DNA of 64,000 nucleotides from Trypanosoma brucei. Its lineage: Eukaryota. Position numbers: made by a program. Position 1 is the stretch's first letter. Every line of letters begins with the position of its first letter. The DNA lies in contig CH464491.1 in assembly GCA_000002445.1 (NCBI GenBank), positions 4,928,001-4,992,000 of the forward strand. Direction: 5' to 3'. Shown piece after piece: positions 15,709-21,700 of the stretch.

Positions 15709-18700
15709 GAGAGTGTACATATACTAATACAATAGAAAAACGTTGACCAAAAACTGGAAACAAGAAGTATAGGCGCTTTAAACAATAGAAAGGGTGAAAT
15801 GGCTGTAATTGGGTGATAGGAATGCTGAGTGGTAAAGAAAAATGGCACAAAGACAATTATTAGGAAAAAAGAGTGCAGAGAAGAAGAGAAAGAGGGATGA
15901 AGATGAAATATTAACAGTTTATAGCAAAATATTACGATCAGTGTCATCATAATATACACGGTTAATGATAGAGGAGGCTGTATTCAGTATACAGGTTAAA
16001 TGGAGTCGCTACCTTTTGCAAAGCATGAAACAAAAAAGATGAAAAGGAAGAAAAATACGTAGTATGATAAAGTGATGCATGAAAGCATAGTGTGAAATAG
16101 TATAGTCAATTATCGATCCACACATTTTACTAAAGTGGGTTAGATAGAAGCGCAGAGGTGATGGTATAAAAAGGTGTAGAAATGGTTAAAAAGCCATGAT
16201 GATTGGAGTATCGTGAAGGTTCAAGATGGGTGGGGCGGCTGACAAAGAAACTAGTAAACTTCTTACTGTATTTTAGTGAATCAGTGACTCAAAACTGAAA
16301 TTACCATTAAAATGTATAGAGAGAGACTGTTTATTCAACAACTGACATGCATGTGGCTGAAGCTAACTTTGAGAACAAAAAAGTAGATAAATGGTGAAAG
16401 ATAAGCTTCTGTCACCGAGTTTACACCATTTTACAGCCAAATAACATCAATACAAAGTCATTAATTACATTTGTAAACACTTTTTACTTTACCAAACACC
16501 TTAGTAAAGAACTCACTTTTTTGTTTTAATTTTTCTACAATTTTATAAGATATTTAAAGTTTTCATTAGTATGGTATTAGTATTTTATGAATTATATAAG
16601 ATGTATCTATGCAAAACTATGTTGTTTAACTTTTATTGTTATGAGTATTAATCTACTTGTGTCGGTATGCAGCTTGTTTGGTGAGGGTGACCCTATTTCA
16701 CTAGAAGTTGTTGAGGATGAGTGTATTAAATTTGTTTCGAAAGATGTAAGGATGATTTGGAAAGCCGACGATTATTTGGTTGTAGCTGGAATACCTTCCA
16801 TAGATAATGATGGGAGATTGAGAAGGCGCAACCTTCAGAGGGAAACGTGTTGGAGTTATCCCGAAGCGGCAAGGAAGGTAAATAATTTTACTGGAAAGTT
16901 GTCTGTAGTATATACCCTTTCACCTCATACAAATAGCAATTGCGAGCTCAGAGTAATCGCTGAAGAAGAGGCGGAGTTAAAGCAGGATATTATTATTTTA
17001 CCTGTTTGCGATGTGAATCCAACAACATATAAAAAAGTTGGAGATGCGGGTAATTGGGGGTGGAAAGCGGAACTCACGATGAGCAGGAAGACGTATTAGT
17101 GGTTCAAATTTGCAGTTGAAATATTTAAACCAACTATTTCCTATATAATGAAAGCAGATGATGATATTTTTATGAGGGTGCTATTGTATGTAAAATATCT
17201 GGAAGTGCTTCCAAGGGATAGATTGAATATGGGGAGGGCGATTGGATATTATAAAGATTTTAGTGACGAAATTACATGGCATACTATTGGTTATGCGTCC
17301 ACTTCATCTAGGGATGTATTTGAGGAAATTGTTGATTATAAAACTCTGAAAGGCCGAGTCAAGTCACACGTTAAGTTACGAAATTTAGAAGCATATATTG
17401 ATTTTAGACCACTCAATAAAGACATAATGGTTGGCGAAGTTATAAGAAATAAATTTAAATTTAAGGGGTTATTGACTGTGGATATGCAGGATTGTCGTCA
17501 TGTAATGCATCCCGGTAGATAATTTCAAGAAATAAAACCAGCAAATACAATAGGAATTCATCATATAAGAGAGACAGATTATGCATTTTTAGTGGAATTA
17601 TGGAAAAAACTGGACTCACCACGGCGTCAGGAACAGAGAATAACGTATTTGCAACCGTTTTTGGAGAAAGCAAAATGATTGCACTCTAAAATAAGCACAA
17701 GCTGCTGTGCGCAAGCTGATAAACAGGCTTCATAAAGGGGAAATGGAAACGAGAATAAGACCACATTCACCAGAAAACCATAACATCAGAAATGACCACG
17801 CAAGTGGCGAATACGAAAAGACAAACGGCCACACAAGCGCTTCTTATCAACAAAGTTTAGGCTCTAGGTCCAAGCAAGCGAGCAACATTATAAACCGTGC
17901 ACAATTACACTATGCTAACACAAACTTTTTTTATACTGAAGACCCTGTTTCTTATGCAATATATTACGGCCCCGGAAACAGTGGCAGTGCAACCCGGATA
18001 CAGCGGTGCATAGCACAAAGAATTATGCTGACTCGTTGAACGAGCTCAACGACCGCCAGCCCAGGTTGTAAACAAACTCGAAGCAAAAGCGGCTACGGAC
18101 ACGATTGCACTATTTAACATGACGTTCAGCGAAGACAGCTGGCAAAGGCTTTGCGCATAAGACACCGAAAACAACAAGTGGGAGAGGGTATAAGTCAAAT
18201 ACACTGACCAGGGACAAAAAACAGACTGGGCAAAAAACTTGGAAAACTGGAGAAAAGTGGCGAAAGACCTCGAGGCCAAAGCAAACGACGACGCATGGAA
18301 AGCGAAGCACGCCAAGCCAACCATCCCACACGCTCTACACTTAGCGCAGCGGAACCTAAGGCAACTAGCAAGACAAGCGGCAGCGGAGTACCTGCTGTAT
18401 CAGACACTGGTAATAACCGCCAATGCTGCCGACATCACAGCGGTGCTCATAAACCTAAGCTCAGCCCTTAACGGCGCCACCGCTCAATTGACGAAGCCGG
18501 TAAAGCCGACAGACTTGGGAATAGCAGCAAGCGCAAGAACAACGGGGATGTCTGGTGGCAACAAAGTCGGACAAAAGCTTCTATACGACCTAGCATGCTT
18601 ATGCGTAGCGGAAACCAAATACTACAGCAAGGTATGCGTAGAATTGACCGGCAAAAACGGCTGGACCAGCACACAAGGTAACACAATAACCGATGCAACC

Positions 18701-21700
18701 GCCGCCCTAAACGCCTGTGGCATCACACAGAACCCCAGCTTAACAGCCCGCGCCACAAGGGCAGCGATAGCCAACTGCTACAGCATGCTCGGTAGGCACA
18801 GCGACGCTAACTCAAATTCCGCTATACAGGGTAGATCGACAGCGGGGCAGAAATGCAGCGGCGGTGCCGACGACATGTGTGTAAATGCGGGGACTACATA
18901 ACAACAGGTGACACCACAAAAAACAAACCAATACTATGGGTCGAAAAAATGCTTCAAGAAGTCACGGCACTAGAGAGCAGAGACAGTCATGTGACTGAGG
19001 CTAACAGCGTGCTGCACAGGCTCCTAAAGCTACGGGAAGCAGCCAAAGGAGCGTTCGAATTTGCCGCGCTCCTCGCAGAACTTCTTTTGCAACCTAAACA
19101 TGCGGCAACAGGGAAAACGGACCCACAGAAAAAACAATGCAACCAACGCAAAAGCAATAAAACTTGCACAGCAAACAAATGAAAATGGGGTAGCACAACA
19201 GAGCCAACAGGAGACCATTGTAAACCCAAAGATAGAGAAGCGCGGACAAATCAAGGAACAGGAGATGGAGCTTCAGGGGCAGGTACAACATCAGAAAAAT
19301 GCAAAGGGGAATTGGAACCAGAATTCACCAAGGCTCTTGAATGCAAATGGGAAGACAACAAATGCAAAGATTCAAGTTTCCTCCTAAGAAATTCGCTCTG
19401 AATATGGCTGCTTCATTTAAGGAATTGGTAGAATTTTAACGGTTATAAAATTCTAAGGATGTTTTTCCAGTTTAATGAAATTTACTTTTTGAGAGAATAA
19501 GTGAAACATGCAAATTTTGAAAATAAGAATATTTGACATAAAAATAACCTATGAATACAAATAAATGGGTAATATAATACACAATAAGTGCTATCATGGA
19601 CTCCTATTGGCTTATTTTGTGTGTTTTATGGGTATTACCTGAGGTTACAATAAAAATAATAAGAGAGTGTTGTGAGTGTGCATATACTAATATTATAATA
19701 ATAGCAGTAATAATAGTAGTAATAATGATAATAATAATAATTAAATACTGTTGTGAGTGTGTGTATACGAATATTATAATGAGAGTGCTGCGGACACAAT
19801 TAAACTTTAAAATAGATGTACTTAGAATAATTGAAAGTGATCAATGGGAATAAGTAGGTATACGAGAAAAGGAAGGAAAAAGGAAAGGAGACAAAATGTG
19901 CTCAGATTCAAACGACAGTATGACGATGGTCATTATTATACAGAAAGATATGATAGAGGGGTTGATGAGGTAGAAACAATGTGCAGGCCTAATAGAGTTA
20001 GAGCGTCACTCGCCCCACCACCATCACAGAAATTTGTGATATATGAGTATTAAAGAAAATGTTGGATTTCATATCTCACTATATAGTGGATATATTCTTT
20101 GCAGAGATGATTGCAGCAGCGGCAGTAGCAGTAGTTCCAAACGCTACGCTGATGGAAGTCTTATGATGGAAACCGTGTAATTGGAATAGCTAGCACACGG
20201 AACTGGTAAAATTCCTAGCATATCTGAACTAAGCAGTGAAACAAGATACTTCCATTAAAATAACTATGCGTATAGGTGAAATTTAAGAAATGCAATAAAG
20301 GAGTAGAACTCCTCTAGCGCTCTCGGCACCAGCTGTTGCTAAAACTGAATTATAAAACAAAAACCTGTAGATACCCGTTTAAAGAGAAGCTGCACACACT
20401 AAGAATACATTTTTCATCAGATACATCATAACAATATCAAGTCAATACCTATGTATATAAAACTGTTTCTTAACTAAACAGCTTAGTAGTACATCTGGCT
20501 TATCTTTCATGAGTTTTCTACATTTTTTTCTAATAACAGCCTAAAATTATAAAGGTATATTAGGCAATAAAGTTTCGTATGTTGAGAAATTTACTACTAC
20601 CGTTGTTATTACGTTGTGTATTTAAGTACAGTATCTCTTGAAAGTGAGCAAGTAAATAACATAAACAATGTGTTGGTGAATTACACTAAGAAACCCAGAG
20701 TATTTGCGGTTTTAGTTCAATCCCATGAAATTCAAGGATGGTGCAGGCTAATATTGAGTGCCAAACTAAGTGATGTTGAAATTATTACAGTTGAAATGGG
20801 AGGTTTGTATAGTAATGTCAAAAGGCCTAGATGGGTTATGGAGTTTTTAGAAAGACAGAACGTAAGTGACGAGGATATTGTAATTCATGTGGATGAATCT
20901 GATGCTATTGTTTCTGATCGTGATATGTATGAGAATGCGGTGGACTATTTTATATAAAATACAACTGAAAATGAACATAAATTTAGCGAAGAGGATATAG
21001 TTAAAGAGCATGTGGAGAGATGTTACTGAGCTTTCAATATTCGACACACAGAGAAAAAGTGGATAAGAAATTACCTCATTTACTAAAATACCTCCTAGTG
21101 GAAACCCCTATCTTGGTGTTTGTGGTTTGATAGCCAGAGTTTGGGCATTTGGGAAATTTGAATATGCTTTTGGAGAGTTACTAAAGGGAAGTGAGAAATG
21201 GTGGTCGGAATAGAGTATCTATACGCCACTGCTAATATGGAGTGTTACACAGGAGGAAGCTGTTTGACAGAGATTTGTTTTGAAGAGAGGAATTATTGGA
21301 TTAGATTATGAGGAGAGATTTTTTACTATTCCATATAGTGGAGAAGTTGAAGAGACCCCATTCATTCATTTTTCAGAGCAGCTAATTGCAGGGGCCAGAT
21401 GACAAAATTGATTGTGAGAAATCTTACTTGGTGTGAAGAATTGGAAGGAAGGGAATTCGGTACGCAATATTTGAATTAAATTGAAACTTTTTTGATACAT
21501 GGAGAGGAATTGGATTTTGAATATATGAATGTTTGTGATGAAGGTTTTATAGAAGAAGATTTTCTTTAAGCTAAGAAAGTGTAAAAGCTATGCAGCTCGC
21601 CTGGTGACTGCACCTAATGCTGTTAATGTGGCATGACCACAAACGTTAGACACGATTTCCTGTTAGAAAATATAAAGTACCTCTGCATCGACTAGCGGAA

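What the first reader, a model, noticed from the sequence alone, without database searches (positions are those of the whole stretch)
17523..20615. A VSG pseudogene fragment plus its downstream 70-bp repeats inserted between GT31 and family-2
In copy A the GT31 and family-2 genes are 235 bp apart. In copy B they are 3.1 kb apart. The extra DNA is a signal-peptide-less VSG N/C-domain fragment (18046-19440), its 3'UTR and about 2 units of 70-bp repeat (19651-19790). This looks like the footprint of a segmental gene-conversion or insertion event that used the 70-bp repeat as one boundary. It is a snapshot of how array cassettes are shuffled.
Basis: seen in the sequence. Interest (0 to 1): 0.55.

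Follow-up and report, generated by a model that had tools for sequence, protein, structure and literature searches.

The report
Ordinary junction of two VSG cassettes
The flagged DNA is the normal boundary between two neighbouring silent surface-antigen (VSG) gene cassettes in a Trypanosoma brucei subtelomeric array, not a demonstrable insertion, so it is ordinary and already-known genome architecture.

Summary
The window is T. b. brucei TREU927 chromosome 11 subtelomeric VSG array (four VSG ORFs match TREU927 proteins exactly). The structural observation holds. A GT31-like (CAZy GT67) glycosyltransferase pseudogene and "family-2", which is an ESAG3 pseudogene, lie about 0.2 kb apart in copy A and about 2.9 kb apart in copy B.

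The details and the interpretation do not hold.
- The VSG is a full-length type-B pseudogene (17912-19439) with a start codon and a hydrophobic N-terminus. It is not a signal-peptide-less fragment.
- The 70-bp repeat (19649-19790) is not at a breakpoint. It sits inside the extra DNA, 0.8-0.9 kb from ESAG3.
- A third ESAG3 pseudogene (copy C, 57299-58397, minus strand) shares the same 70-bp, spacer, ESAG3 layout colinearly with B.
- A VSG followed about 200-430 bp later by a 70-bp repeat is the standard inter-cassette junction throughout the window.
- Copy A's 214-bp spacer matches nothing in or around B's extra DNA. No microhomology or target duplication exists.
- All copies are about 25-30% diverged and star-like.

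Region B is best read as two parallel canonical cassettes (70-bp, spacer, glycosyltransferase pseudogene, VSG pseudogene). The A/B difference reflects old, independent junctions whose polarity cannot be resolved here. Interest is low.

The parts
15151..15730 (+). 70-bp repeat / (TAA)n array that heads cassette B1. It contains a 100-N assembly gap at 15362-15461.
   Evidence: BLAST matches to the other 70-bp repeats. TRF finds (TAA)82 at 15462-15708. N runs listed.
15731..16586 (+). Spacer S(B1), between the 70-bp repeat and the GT31-like pseudogene
   Evidence: 16176-16586 continues the 72% alignment to A 3886-3472. 16352-16544 is homologous to the ESAG3 upstream spacer 20334-20527 (66%, E=7e-18).
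16587..17678 (+). GT31-like (T. brucei UDP-Gal/UDP-GlcNAc-dependent glycosyltransferase, CAZy GT67) pseudogene, copy B. In-frame stops at 17097 and 17520. Nucleotide homology to copy A ends at 17581.
   Evidence: The last ~100 nt show no similarity to A or to intact paralogue C-terminal tails.
17582..17911 (+). Unique flank between the end of GT31 homology and the VSG start codon
   Evidence: No match anywhere else in the window at E<1e-3 with sensitive blastn. No Pfam hit in its open frames.
17912..19439 (+). Full-length type-B VSG pseudogene. ATG at 17912. In-frame stops at 18011, 18029, 18158, 18191 and ~19180. Frameshifts near 18895 and 19386.
   Evidence: Pfam VSG_B positions 10-350 of 352 (E=9.8e-36) and Trypan_glycop_C positions 1-103 of 104 (E=1.6e-17). 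End-to-end alignment with intact VSGs, including conserved Cys residues and the GPI-signal region. Coordinates.
19440..19648 (+). VSG 3' flank leading into the next cassette's 70-bp repeat. It lacks a recognisable VSG 3'UTR 16-mer.
   Evidence: 19330-19484 and 19521-19698 match the VSG 3' ends and pre-repeat flanks of other cassettes. No 16-mer within 3 mismatches here.
19649..19790 (+). About 1.7 units of 70-bp repeat with an internal (ATA/TAA)n tract. This is the head of cassette B2.
   Evidence: Self-match 19649-19699 to 19730-19780 (84%). Matches to ten other repeats in the orientation of their downstream VSGs. TRF.
19791..20566 (+). Spacer S(B2), between the 70-bp repeat and the ESAG3 pseudogene
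   Evidence: Colinear with copy C: 19812-19979 to 59234-59044, and 20069-20600 to 58895-58364 (E=5e-26). Also matches the spacers upstream of GT31 in A (3722-3525) and B1.
20567..21584 (+). The start codon is mutated to ATA. It has frameshifts, stops and an internal deletion of ~80 nt.
   Evidence: tblastn with BES ESAG3 covers aa 41-368. N-terminal codons are detectable (score 40, 1 of 500 shuffles). Identity of the family. Coordinates.
21804..23279 (+). Type-B VSG pseudogene of cassette B2. An exact 16-mer lies at 23318-23333.
   Evidence: Pfam VSG_B E=4e-36. Translation. 16-mer.
4151..4225 (-). 70-bp repeat that heads cassette A
2372..3471 (-). GT31-like (GT67) pseudogene, copy A, with an authentic-looking C-terminus (...WAEFRC*)
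   Evidence: The tail matches intact paralogue P0020 (score 30, 3 of 500 shuffles).
2158..2371 (-). Copy A spacer between GT31 and clear ESAG3 homology. It is unique sequence.
   Evidence: No similarity to B's left flank, right flank, 3'UTR or whole insert, nor to C (z from -2.1 to 1.4).
1170..2157 (-). ESAG3 pseudogene, copy A. The N-terminal ~40 codons are not demonstrably present.
   Evidence: The N-terminus test is not significant (104 of 500 shuffles).
57299..58397 (-).
58398..59425 (-). Spacer S(C) plus the 70-bp repeat (59317-59425) upstream of ESAG3 copy C
   Evidence: Colinear with B 19512-20600.

Best explanation
Region 17523-20615 is the ordinary junction between two consecutive cassettes of a T. 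brucei TREU927 chromosome 11 subtelomeric VSG array.

Cassette B1 runs: 70-bp/(TAA)n array (15151-15730), spacer S, GT67 ('GT31-like') glycosyltransferase pseudogene (16587-17678), 233 bp, full-length VSG pseudogene (17912-19439).

Cassette B2 runs: 70-bp repeat (19649-19790), spacer S, ESAG3 pseudogene (20567-21584), 219 bp, VSG pseudogene (21804-23279).

The two glycosyltransferase pseudogenes occupy the same slot in two parallel cassettes, behind homologous 5' spacers. In B they were probably never direct neighbours.

The 70-bp repeat after the VSG pseudogene is the upstream recombination repeat of the next cassette. In function (inferred from established knowledge), the VSG pseudogene is a silent archive donor for segmental or mosaic conversion. 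The 70-bp repeat supplies 5' homology for copying the downstream ESAG3-pseudogene plus VSG unit.

Copy A, where GT67 abuts ESAG3, and copy B are alternative, ancient, non-homologous joints between the same reusable modules. Neither is the simple ancestor of the other.

Shown here: the anatomy, the colinearity with copy C, the lack of junction homology and the high divergence. Inferred: the history and the direction of the rearrangements.
For: Source and identity of the parts:
- Four VSG ORFs match TREU927 proteins exactly, on a 5.26-Mb contig.
- Family-2 is 83% identical to bloodstream expression site (BES) ESAG3.
- The GT gene is 70-73% identical to TREU927 UDP-Gal/GlcNAc glycosyltransferases. 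This family is CAZy GT67 (PMC8477195).
- The VSG pseudogene is full length.

The junction is the standard one:
- In 9-10 of 11 cassettes in the window, a 70-bp repeat follows the VSG stop by 194-430 bp. Here the distance is 210 bp.

The spacer is shared:
- B 19512-21569 is colinear with copy C through the 70-bp repeat, the spacer and ESAG3.
- The ~270 bp upstream of GT67 (A, B1) and upstream of ESAG3 (B2, C) are homologous (E=1e-16 to 1e-18).

No junction homology:
- A's 214-bp spacer matches nothing in or around B's extra DNA.
- No repeat or microhomology exceeds chance at the B boundaries.
- A keeps an authentic GT C-terminal tail, but B's last ~100 nt are unrelated.
- B and C keep the ESAG3 N-terminal codons and 5' flank. 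For A this is not demonstrable.

Age:
- K2P distances are 0.30-0.35 for all pairs. Three-taxon site patterns are 97/113/103, which is star-like.

Literature:
- 70-bp repeats lie upstream of array VSGs, and arrays hold many ESAG pseudogenes (PMC2771046, PMC4858185).
- Glycosyltransferase genes are frequent in T. brucei subtelomeres (PMC4288722).
- An ESAG3 pseudogene lies 3' of the 70-bp repeats in BES7 and BES15. VSG pseudogenes are sandwiched between two 70-bp arrays in BES1, 14 and 15 (PMC2567434).
Against: - No outgroup locus from another T. brucei region or strain could be retrieved, so the polarity (insertion in B, deletion in A, or independent joints) is not shown.
- B's GT67 pseudogene has an unrecognisable 3' end. 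That fits something having been joined into B at ~17582, which is what an insertion or replacement in B would give on that side.
- The tests on the short tails and N-termini (30-45 codons) have low power. A's ESAG3 N-terminus shows a weak, non-significant resemblance (LLSLLVVLLPL.LQ against LLSHLVCVRALFLQ).
- The spacer alignments are only 59-66% identical in AT-rich DNA, although the BLAST E-values are strong.
Confidence: 0.62

Rival explanations
1. An A-like cassette (70-bp, spacer, GT67, ESAG3, VSG) was ancestral. A block made of a VSG pseudogene, its 3'UTR, a 70-bp repeat and a spacer was inserted or converted between GT67 and ESAG3 in B. Copy C later derived from B's second cassette.
For: - The spacing difference is real.
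- A retains an authentic GT67 C-terminus, while B's last ~100 nt are unrelated. The left junction in B therefore looks secondary.
- Errors in which one cassette is copied into another are described for expression sites (PMC2567434).
Against: - The 70-bp repeat is internal, not at a boundary.
- A's spacer is not split on either side of the insert, and it is absent from B altogether.
- B's ESAG3 has a more complete 5' end plus a ~0.9-kb 5' flank shared with C, which A lacks. An insertion cannot restore these.
- No target duplication or microhomology.
- ESAG3 of B is not closer to C than to A.
Confidence: 0.12
2. Simple deletion in A. A B-like pair of cassettes was ancestral, and A lost the VSG, the 70-bp repeat, the spacer and the first ESAG3 codons in one illegitimate deletion.
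For: - Two of three ESAG3 pseudogenes (B, C) and published expression sites carry the 70-bp, ESAG3 pseudogene, VSG layout (PMC2567434).
- A's ESAG3 lacks the shared 5' flank, and its N-terminus is not detectable.
- A's 214-bp spacer could be the genuine 3' flank of GT67.
Against: - B's sequence directly after the end of GT67 homology is unrelated to A's tail and spacer. B itself cannot be the undeleted ancestor without a second event.
- There is no outgroup.
- The N-terminus test has low power.
Confidence: 0.2
3. Assembly artefact. Two unrelated cassettes were joined in silico through the short 70-bp repeat at 19649-19790.
For: - The window is a scaffold with 100-N gaps at 15362-15461, 29645-29744 and 49083-49182. 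Low-quality sequence lies at 47830-49082.
- 70-bp repeats are classic collapse points.
Against: - The region lies inside one gap-free contig (15462-29644).
- The repeat is only ~140 bp, shorter than a Sanger read.
- The VSG, ~200 bp, 70-bp junction matches ten other junctions in the window.
Confidence: 0.04

Closest known systems
Canonical subtelomeric VSG array cassette of Trypanosoma brucei (70-bp repeat(s), upstream region, VSG or VSG pseudogene, 3'UTR)
   Same: Each VSG in the window is preceded by 70-bp repeat(s) in the same orientation. Each is followed within ~200-430 bp by the next cassette's repeat. Most VSGs are full-length pseudogenes with stops and frameshifts. This is as described for the silent archive (PMC2771046, PMC4858185, PMC3467770).
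   Different: Nothing essential differs. These two cassettes also carry passenger glycosyltransferase pseudogenes between the repeat and the VSG. The VSG pseudogene at 17912-19439 has lost the conserved 3'UTR 16-mer.
Expression-site variants with an ESAG3 pseudogene 3' of the 70-bp repeats (BES7, BES15), or a VSG pseudogene sandwiched between two 70-bp arrays (BES1, 14, 15); Hertz-Fowler et al. 2008, PMC2567434
   Same: The module order is the same: 70-bp, ESAG3 pseudogene, VSG (cassettes B2 and C), and 70-bp..., VSG pseudogene, 70-bp..., VSG (B1 plus B2). That paper also notes recombination breakpoints at ESAG3 loci. Here ESAG3 homology stops exactly at the stop codon in all three copies.
   Different: These are silent array cassettes on a megabase-chromosome subtelomere, not telomeric expression sites. 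The repeat tracts are 1-2 units rather than kilobases.
Segmental (mosaic) VSG gene conversion and 70-bp-initiated duplicative transposition (PMC12137147, PMC4858185)
   Same: The parts present (70-bp repeat, VSG pseudogene, conserved C-terminal and 3' region) are the known substrates of these processes.
   Different: No conversion tract can be demonstrated. There is no donor, no boundary in a 70-bp repeat or UTR, no elevated identity and no mosaic pattern beyond weak local fluctuations in ESAG3.

Membership tests
VSG, type B | N-terminal VSG_B domain over its full length | tested here: met
   Pfam PF13206, E=9.8e-36, profile positions 10-350 of 352. Conserved Cys columns align with intact VSGs.
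VSG, type B | C-terminal domain and GPI-signal region | tested here: met
   Pfam PF10659 positions 1-103 of 104, E=1.6e-17. ...CKDSSFLL.KKFAL... aligns with intact VSGs.
VSG, type B | N-terminal signal peptide | tested here: inconclusive
   ATG at 17912 is followed by the hydrophobic MLTQTFFILKTLFLMQYITA, which aligns to the signal region of intact VSGs. No signal-peptide predictor was available.
VSG, type B | Intact ORF (a functional gene rather than a pseudogene) | tested here: not met
   Five in-frame stops and two frameshifts.
VSG, type B | Conserved 3'UTR 16-mer TGATATATTTTAACAC | tested here: not met
   No match within 3 mismatches in 19440-19650. An exact copy lies after the next VSG at 23318.
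70-bp repeat | ~76-bp AT-rich unit with a GT-rich core and a (TAA)n-like tract, upstream of a VSG and in its orientation | tested here: met
   19649-19790 matches ten other repeats in the window at 72-91%, E down to 6e-31. Period is 81 nt, with an (ATA)n tract at 19684-19741. The orientation matches the downstream cassette.
ESAG3 | Sequence homology to expression-site ESAG3 over most of its length | tested here: met
   83% identity over 85% of the query, E=4.7e-142, to a cluster of BES ESAG3 proteins. tblastn covers aa 34-368 in A, B and C.
ESAG3 | Intact ORF | tested here: not met
   Stops and frameshifts in all three copies. The start codon is lost in B (ATA). B carries an internal deletion.
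T. brucei UDP-Gal/UDP-GlcNAc-dependent glycosyltransferases (beta3GT superfamily; Pfam Galactosyl_T; CAZy GT67) | Galactosyl_T domain and DXD motif, with close homology to annotated family members | tested here: met
   PF01762 scores 25.2 bits against a cutoff of 23. KADDDIF is present in both copies. 70-73% identity to TREU927 family proteins. The GT67 assignment comes from PMC8477195. Strictly it is not CAZy GT31.
   Homology to A ends at 17581 and resumes at 20681. The repeat is at 19649-19790.
   A's 214-314 bp between the shared blocks has no similarity to B's flanks.
   No donor in the window. T. brucei loci could not be fetched.

The most novel reading that the evidence does not exclude
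GT67 and ESAG3, two unrelated glycosyltransferase families, sit in the same slot of VSG cassettes behind a shared ~0.3-0.9-kb 5' spacer. Their homology blocks end sharply at coding-sequence ends. This could mark an undescribed subclass of array cassette. In it, glycosyltransferase (pseudo)genes would be co-mobilised with VSGs and would serve as alternative recombination anchors besides the 70-bp repeats. Such cassettes might feed ESAG3 (VSG O-glucosyltransferase) diversity into expression sites.
Probability: 0.12. Interest if true: 0.35.

Novelty: already known. Interest (0 to 1): 0.1.

Why it matters
It matters little beyond correct annotation. The locus shows that passenger ESAG3 and GT67 pseudogenes ride between the 70-bp repeat and the VSG in some array cassettes, and that array modules have been re-joined at non-homologous points over long periods. 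If a real, datable insertion could be shown by comparing strains, it would be one more example of cassette-level shuffling. That process is already accepted for T. brucei subtelomeres.

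Tried and rejected
- **Breakpoint definition and microhomology.** I aligned A's spacer against B's left flank, right flank, 3'UTR and whole insert, and against C. All scores were at shuffle level. The longest word shared by the two B boundaries is 8 nt, and 167 of 300 shuffles reach that. No breakpoints at nucleotide resolution can be called.
- **Polarising with copy C.** ESAG3 distances and three-taxon site patterns are star-like. This is uninformative.
- **Polarising with gene ends.** A's GT tail looks authentic and B's does not. B and C keep the ESAG3 N-terminus, but A's is not significant. 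The signals point in opposite directions for the two junctions. I therefore rejected both a simple insertion and a simple deletion.
- **Outgroup loci.** Exact-protein look-ups of TREU927 GT67 proteins and of ORFs in and around the region found nothing. Only a T. equiperdum 8.7-kb contig for the VSG at 41971-43455 was retrievable, and it is too far away.
- **Hidden coding remnants in the flanks and spacer.** No Pfam hits.
- **Structured RNAs.** No Rfam hit in the window.
- **A large inverted duplication of A and B around the ingi element.** Rejected. The flanking VSGs are unrelated, and only the spacer-plus-GT67 block and the ESAG3 coding block are shared. A scaffold gap separates A from B.

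Full report
**Source of the window.** Four intact VSG ORFs in the window (35335-36813, 38531-39988, 41971-43452 and 49293-50834) are exact matches to annotated proteins of Trypanosoma brucei brucei TREU927. All lie on a 5.26-Mb contig, which I take to be chromosome 11. The window is therefore a published subtelomeric VSG array. It is a scaffold. 100-N gaps lie at 15362-15461, 29645-29744 and 49083-49182. The flagged region lies inside one gap-free contig (15462-29644).

**Checking the observation.**
- Self-BLAST confirms a GT31-like pseudogene pair. B 16532-17510 matches A 3527-2552 at 79% over 980 nt.
- It also confirms a 'family-2' pair. B 20681-21011 matches A 2157-1827, and B 21003-21543 matches A 1748-1210.
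- It reveals a third family-2 copy C at 58272-57512 on the minus strand.
- With more permissive scoring, the A/B alignment runs from A 3886 / B 16176 to A 2472 / B 17581, and resumes at A 2157 / B 20681.
- The GT31-like frame in B reads through two in-frame stops (17097, 17520) to a stop at 17676-17678.
- The unshared DNA is 314 bp in A and 3099 bp in B. Measured between coding ends, it is about 136-214 bp against 2.9 kb.

**Identity of the parts.**
- Family-2 is ESAG3. A stitched translation is 83% identical (E=4.7e-142) to a cluster made of bloodstream expression site (BES) ESAG3 proteins.
- A 2026 preprint reports ESAG3 as a VSG O-glucosyltransferase with a PLOD-like GT-A fold (10.64898/2026.01.27.701950).
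- The 'GT31' gene matches Pfam Galactosyl_T just above the gathering score (25.2 against 23 bits).
[quoted passage not shown] CAZy places this family in GT67 (PMC8477195).
- The VSG is not a fragment. From the ATG at 17912 the stitched reading covers VSG_B profile positions 10-350 of 352 (E=9.8e-36) and the C-terminal domain positions 1-103 of 104 (E=1.6e-17).
- The VSG aligns end to end with intact type-B VSGs. The alignment includes the hydrophobic N-terminus, the conserved cysteines and the GPI-signal region.
- It carries five in-frame stops and two frameshifts and ends at 19439.
- Its 3' flank lacks the conserved 16-mer within three mismatches.
- The 70-bp repeat at 19649-19790 is real. 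It spans about 1.7 units with an 81-nt period, and E reaches 6e-31 against ten other copies.

**Context.** Mapping all VSG loci and 70-bp repeats gives a regular array.
- Every VSG is preceded by a 70-bp repeat in its own orientation.
- In 9-10 of 11 cases the next repeat follows the VSG stop by 194-430 bp. For the flagged VSG pseudogene the distance is 210 bp.
- The '70-bp repeats downstream of the VSG' are therefore the head of the next cassette. This is the canonical arrangement (PMC2771046; PMC4858185).

**B as two parallel cassettes.**
- B1: 70-bp/(TAA)n 15151-15730, an 856-bp spacer, the GT67 pseudogene, 233 bp, then the VSG pseudogene.
- B2: 70-bp 19649-19790, a 776-bp spacer, the ESAG3 pseudogene (20567-21584), 219 bp, then a VSG pseudogene at 21804-23279.
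- The spacers are homologous. The ~270 bp directly upstream of GT67 (A 3722-3525, B 16352-16544) matches the ~270 bp upstream of ESAG3 (B 20326-20527, C 58895-58364), with E from 1e-16 to 5e-26.
- Copy C is colinear with B through four segments: the 70-bp repeat, the 5' spacer, the 3' spacer and ESAG3.
- The right-hand side of the supposed insert is therefore a recurrent cassette head, not a junction unique to B.
- The same layout, an ESAG3 pseudogene 3' of the 70-bp repeats, is published for BES7 and BES15. VSG pseudogenes sandwiched between two 70-bp arrays are published for BES1, 14 and 15 (PMC2567434).

**Testing the insertion model.**
- A's 214-bp spacer (2371-2158) has no similarity to B's left flank, right flank, 3'UTR or whole insert, nor to C. 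All scores sit at shuffle level.
- The unique B flank 17582-17911 matches nothing else in the window.
- The two B boundaries share no word longer than 8 nt, as expected by chance.
- The 70-bp repeat lies 790-890 bp inside the extra DNA.
- B is therefore not 'A plus an insertion', and A is not 'B minus a deletion'. The two joints share no junction sequence.

**Attempts to polarise the history.** The signals conflict.
- A's GT67 tail (...ERWAEFRC*) resembles the intact paralogue tail (...AFWHEFTC). The score is 30, reached by 3 of 500 shuffles.
- The last ~100 nt of B's GT67 are unrelated to A (z=-0.3) and to the paralogue tails. B's left joint therefore looks secondary.
- Conversely, B and C keep the ESAG3 N-terminal codons (B: 1 of 500 shuffles; C: 36 of 500) and the long 5' flank.
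- A's ESAG3 N-terminus is not demonstrable (104 of 500), and A lacks the flank. A's right joint therefore looks secondary.
- Divergence is high and uniform. K2P is 0.31 for GT67 A-B. For ESAG3 it is 0.35 (A-B), 0.30 (A-C) and 0.33 (B-C).
- Three-taxon site patterns are 97/113/103. A and B are not a privileged duplicate pair, and the events are old.
- ESAG3 homology among all three copies ends exactly at the stop codon. The downstream VSGs are unrelated. This fits the published remark that recombination breakpoints cluster at ESAG3 loci (PMC2567434).

**Outgroups.** Exact-protein look-ups for TREU927 GT67 proteins and for ORFs in the region failed. Only a distant T. equiperdum contig was retrievable. 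Polarity cannot be settled with these tools.

**Verdict.** The structural observation is real, but it describes ordinary, already-annotated array architecture: the junction of two canonical cassettes that carry passenger glycosyltransferase pseudogenes. The specific reading is not supported. That reading was a signal-peptide-less VSG fragment inserted with a 70-bp repeat as one boundary, giving a snapshot of shuffling. The general idea that array modules have been re-joined is supported. Interest is low and novelty is 'already known'.

Noticed in passing
window 47830-49182: Strongly G-rich sequence (GC skew ~0.54) with a low-quality look and scattered single Ns, running into a 100-N gap. It is probably poor read ends at a contig edge. 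The apparent convergent strand switch near 49 kb is therefore a scaffold join, not necessarily biology.
   Followed up: partly
window 7685-8236 and 13000-13554, flanking 8552-13027: An ingi-type retroelement (endonuclease, RT and RNase H ORFs on the minus strand) overlaps at its 5' end one arm (13000-13554) of a 555-bp inverted repeat at 93% identity; the other arm (7685-8236) lies ~300 bp beyond its 3' end. The repeat is probably the 5' part of a second ingi-like copy in the opposite orientation, located at the divergent strand switch between cassettes A and B.
   Followed up: partly
window 15151-15730: A long 70-bp array containing (TAA)82 (15462-15708) is interrupted by a 100-N gap (15362-15461). 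Copy A and copy B therefore lie on different contigs of the scaffold.
   Followed up: no
window 3525-3722, 16352-16544, 20326-20527, 58364-58895: The ~270 bp immediately upstream of the GT67 pseudogenes and of the ESAG3 pseudogenes are homologous. Two unrelated glycosyltransferase families share a 5' flank and sit in the same cassette slot. The origin of this is unexplained.
   Followed up: partly
window ~1170, ~21584, ~57299: Homology among the three ESAG3 pseudogenes is strong in the last 100 nt (z 8-12) and vanishes in the 100 nt after the stop codon (z<1). The downstream VSGs are unrelated. This suggests recurrent exchange points at the ESAG3 3' end.
   Followed up: partly
window 21003-21011 (B) versus 1748-1827 (A): ESAG3 pseudogene B lacks ~80 nt (about 29 codons) that are present in copies A and C.
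   Followed up: no
window 23318-23333 versus 19440-19650: The VSG pseudogene of cassette B2 keeps a perfect 3'UTR 16-mer (TGATATATTTTAACAC), although its ORF is disrupted. The flagged VSG pseudogene has lost the motif.
   Followed up: no
L001 (T. equiperdum GCA_001457755.2 contig CZPT02001491.1, 8666 bp); window 41971-43455: The VSG at 41971-43455 is encoded with an identical protein sequence in T. equiperdum. At least part of this array is conserved across Trypanozoon taxa.
   Followed up: no
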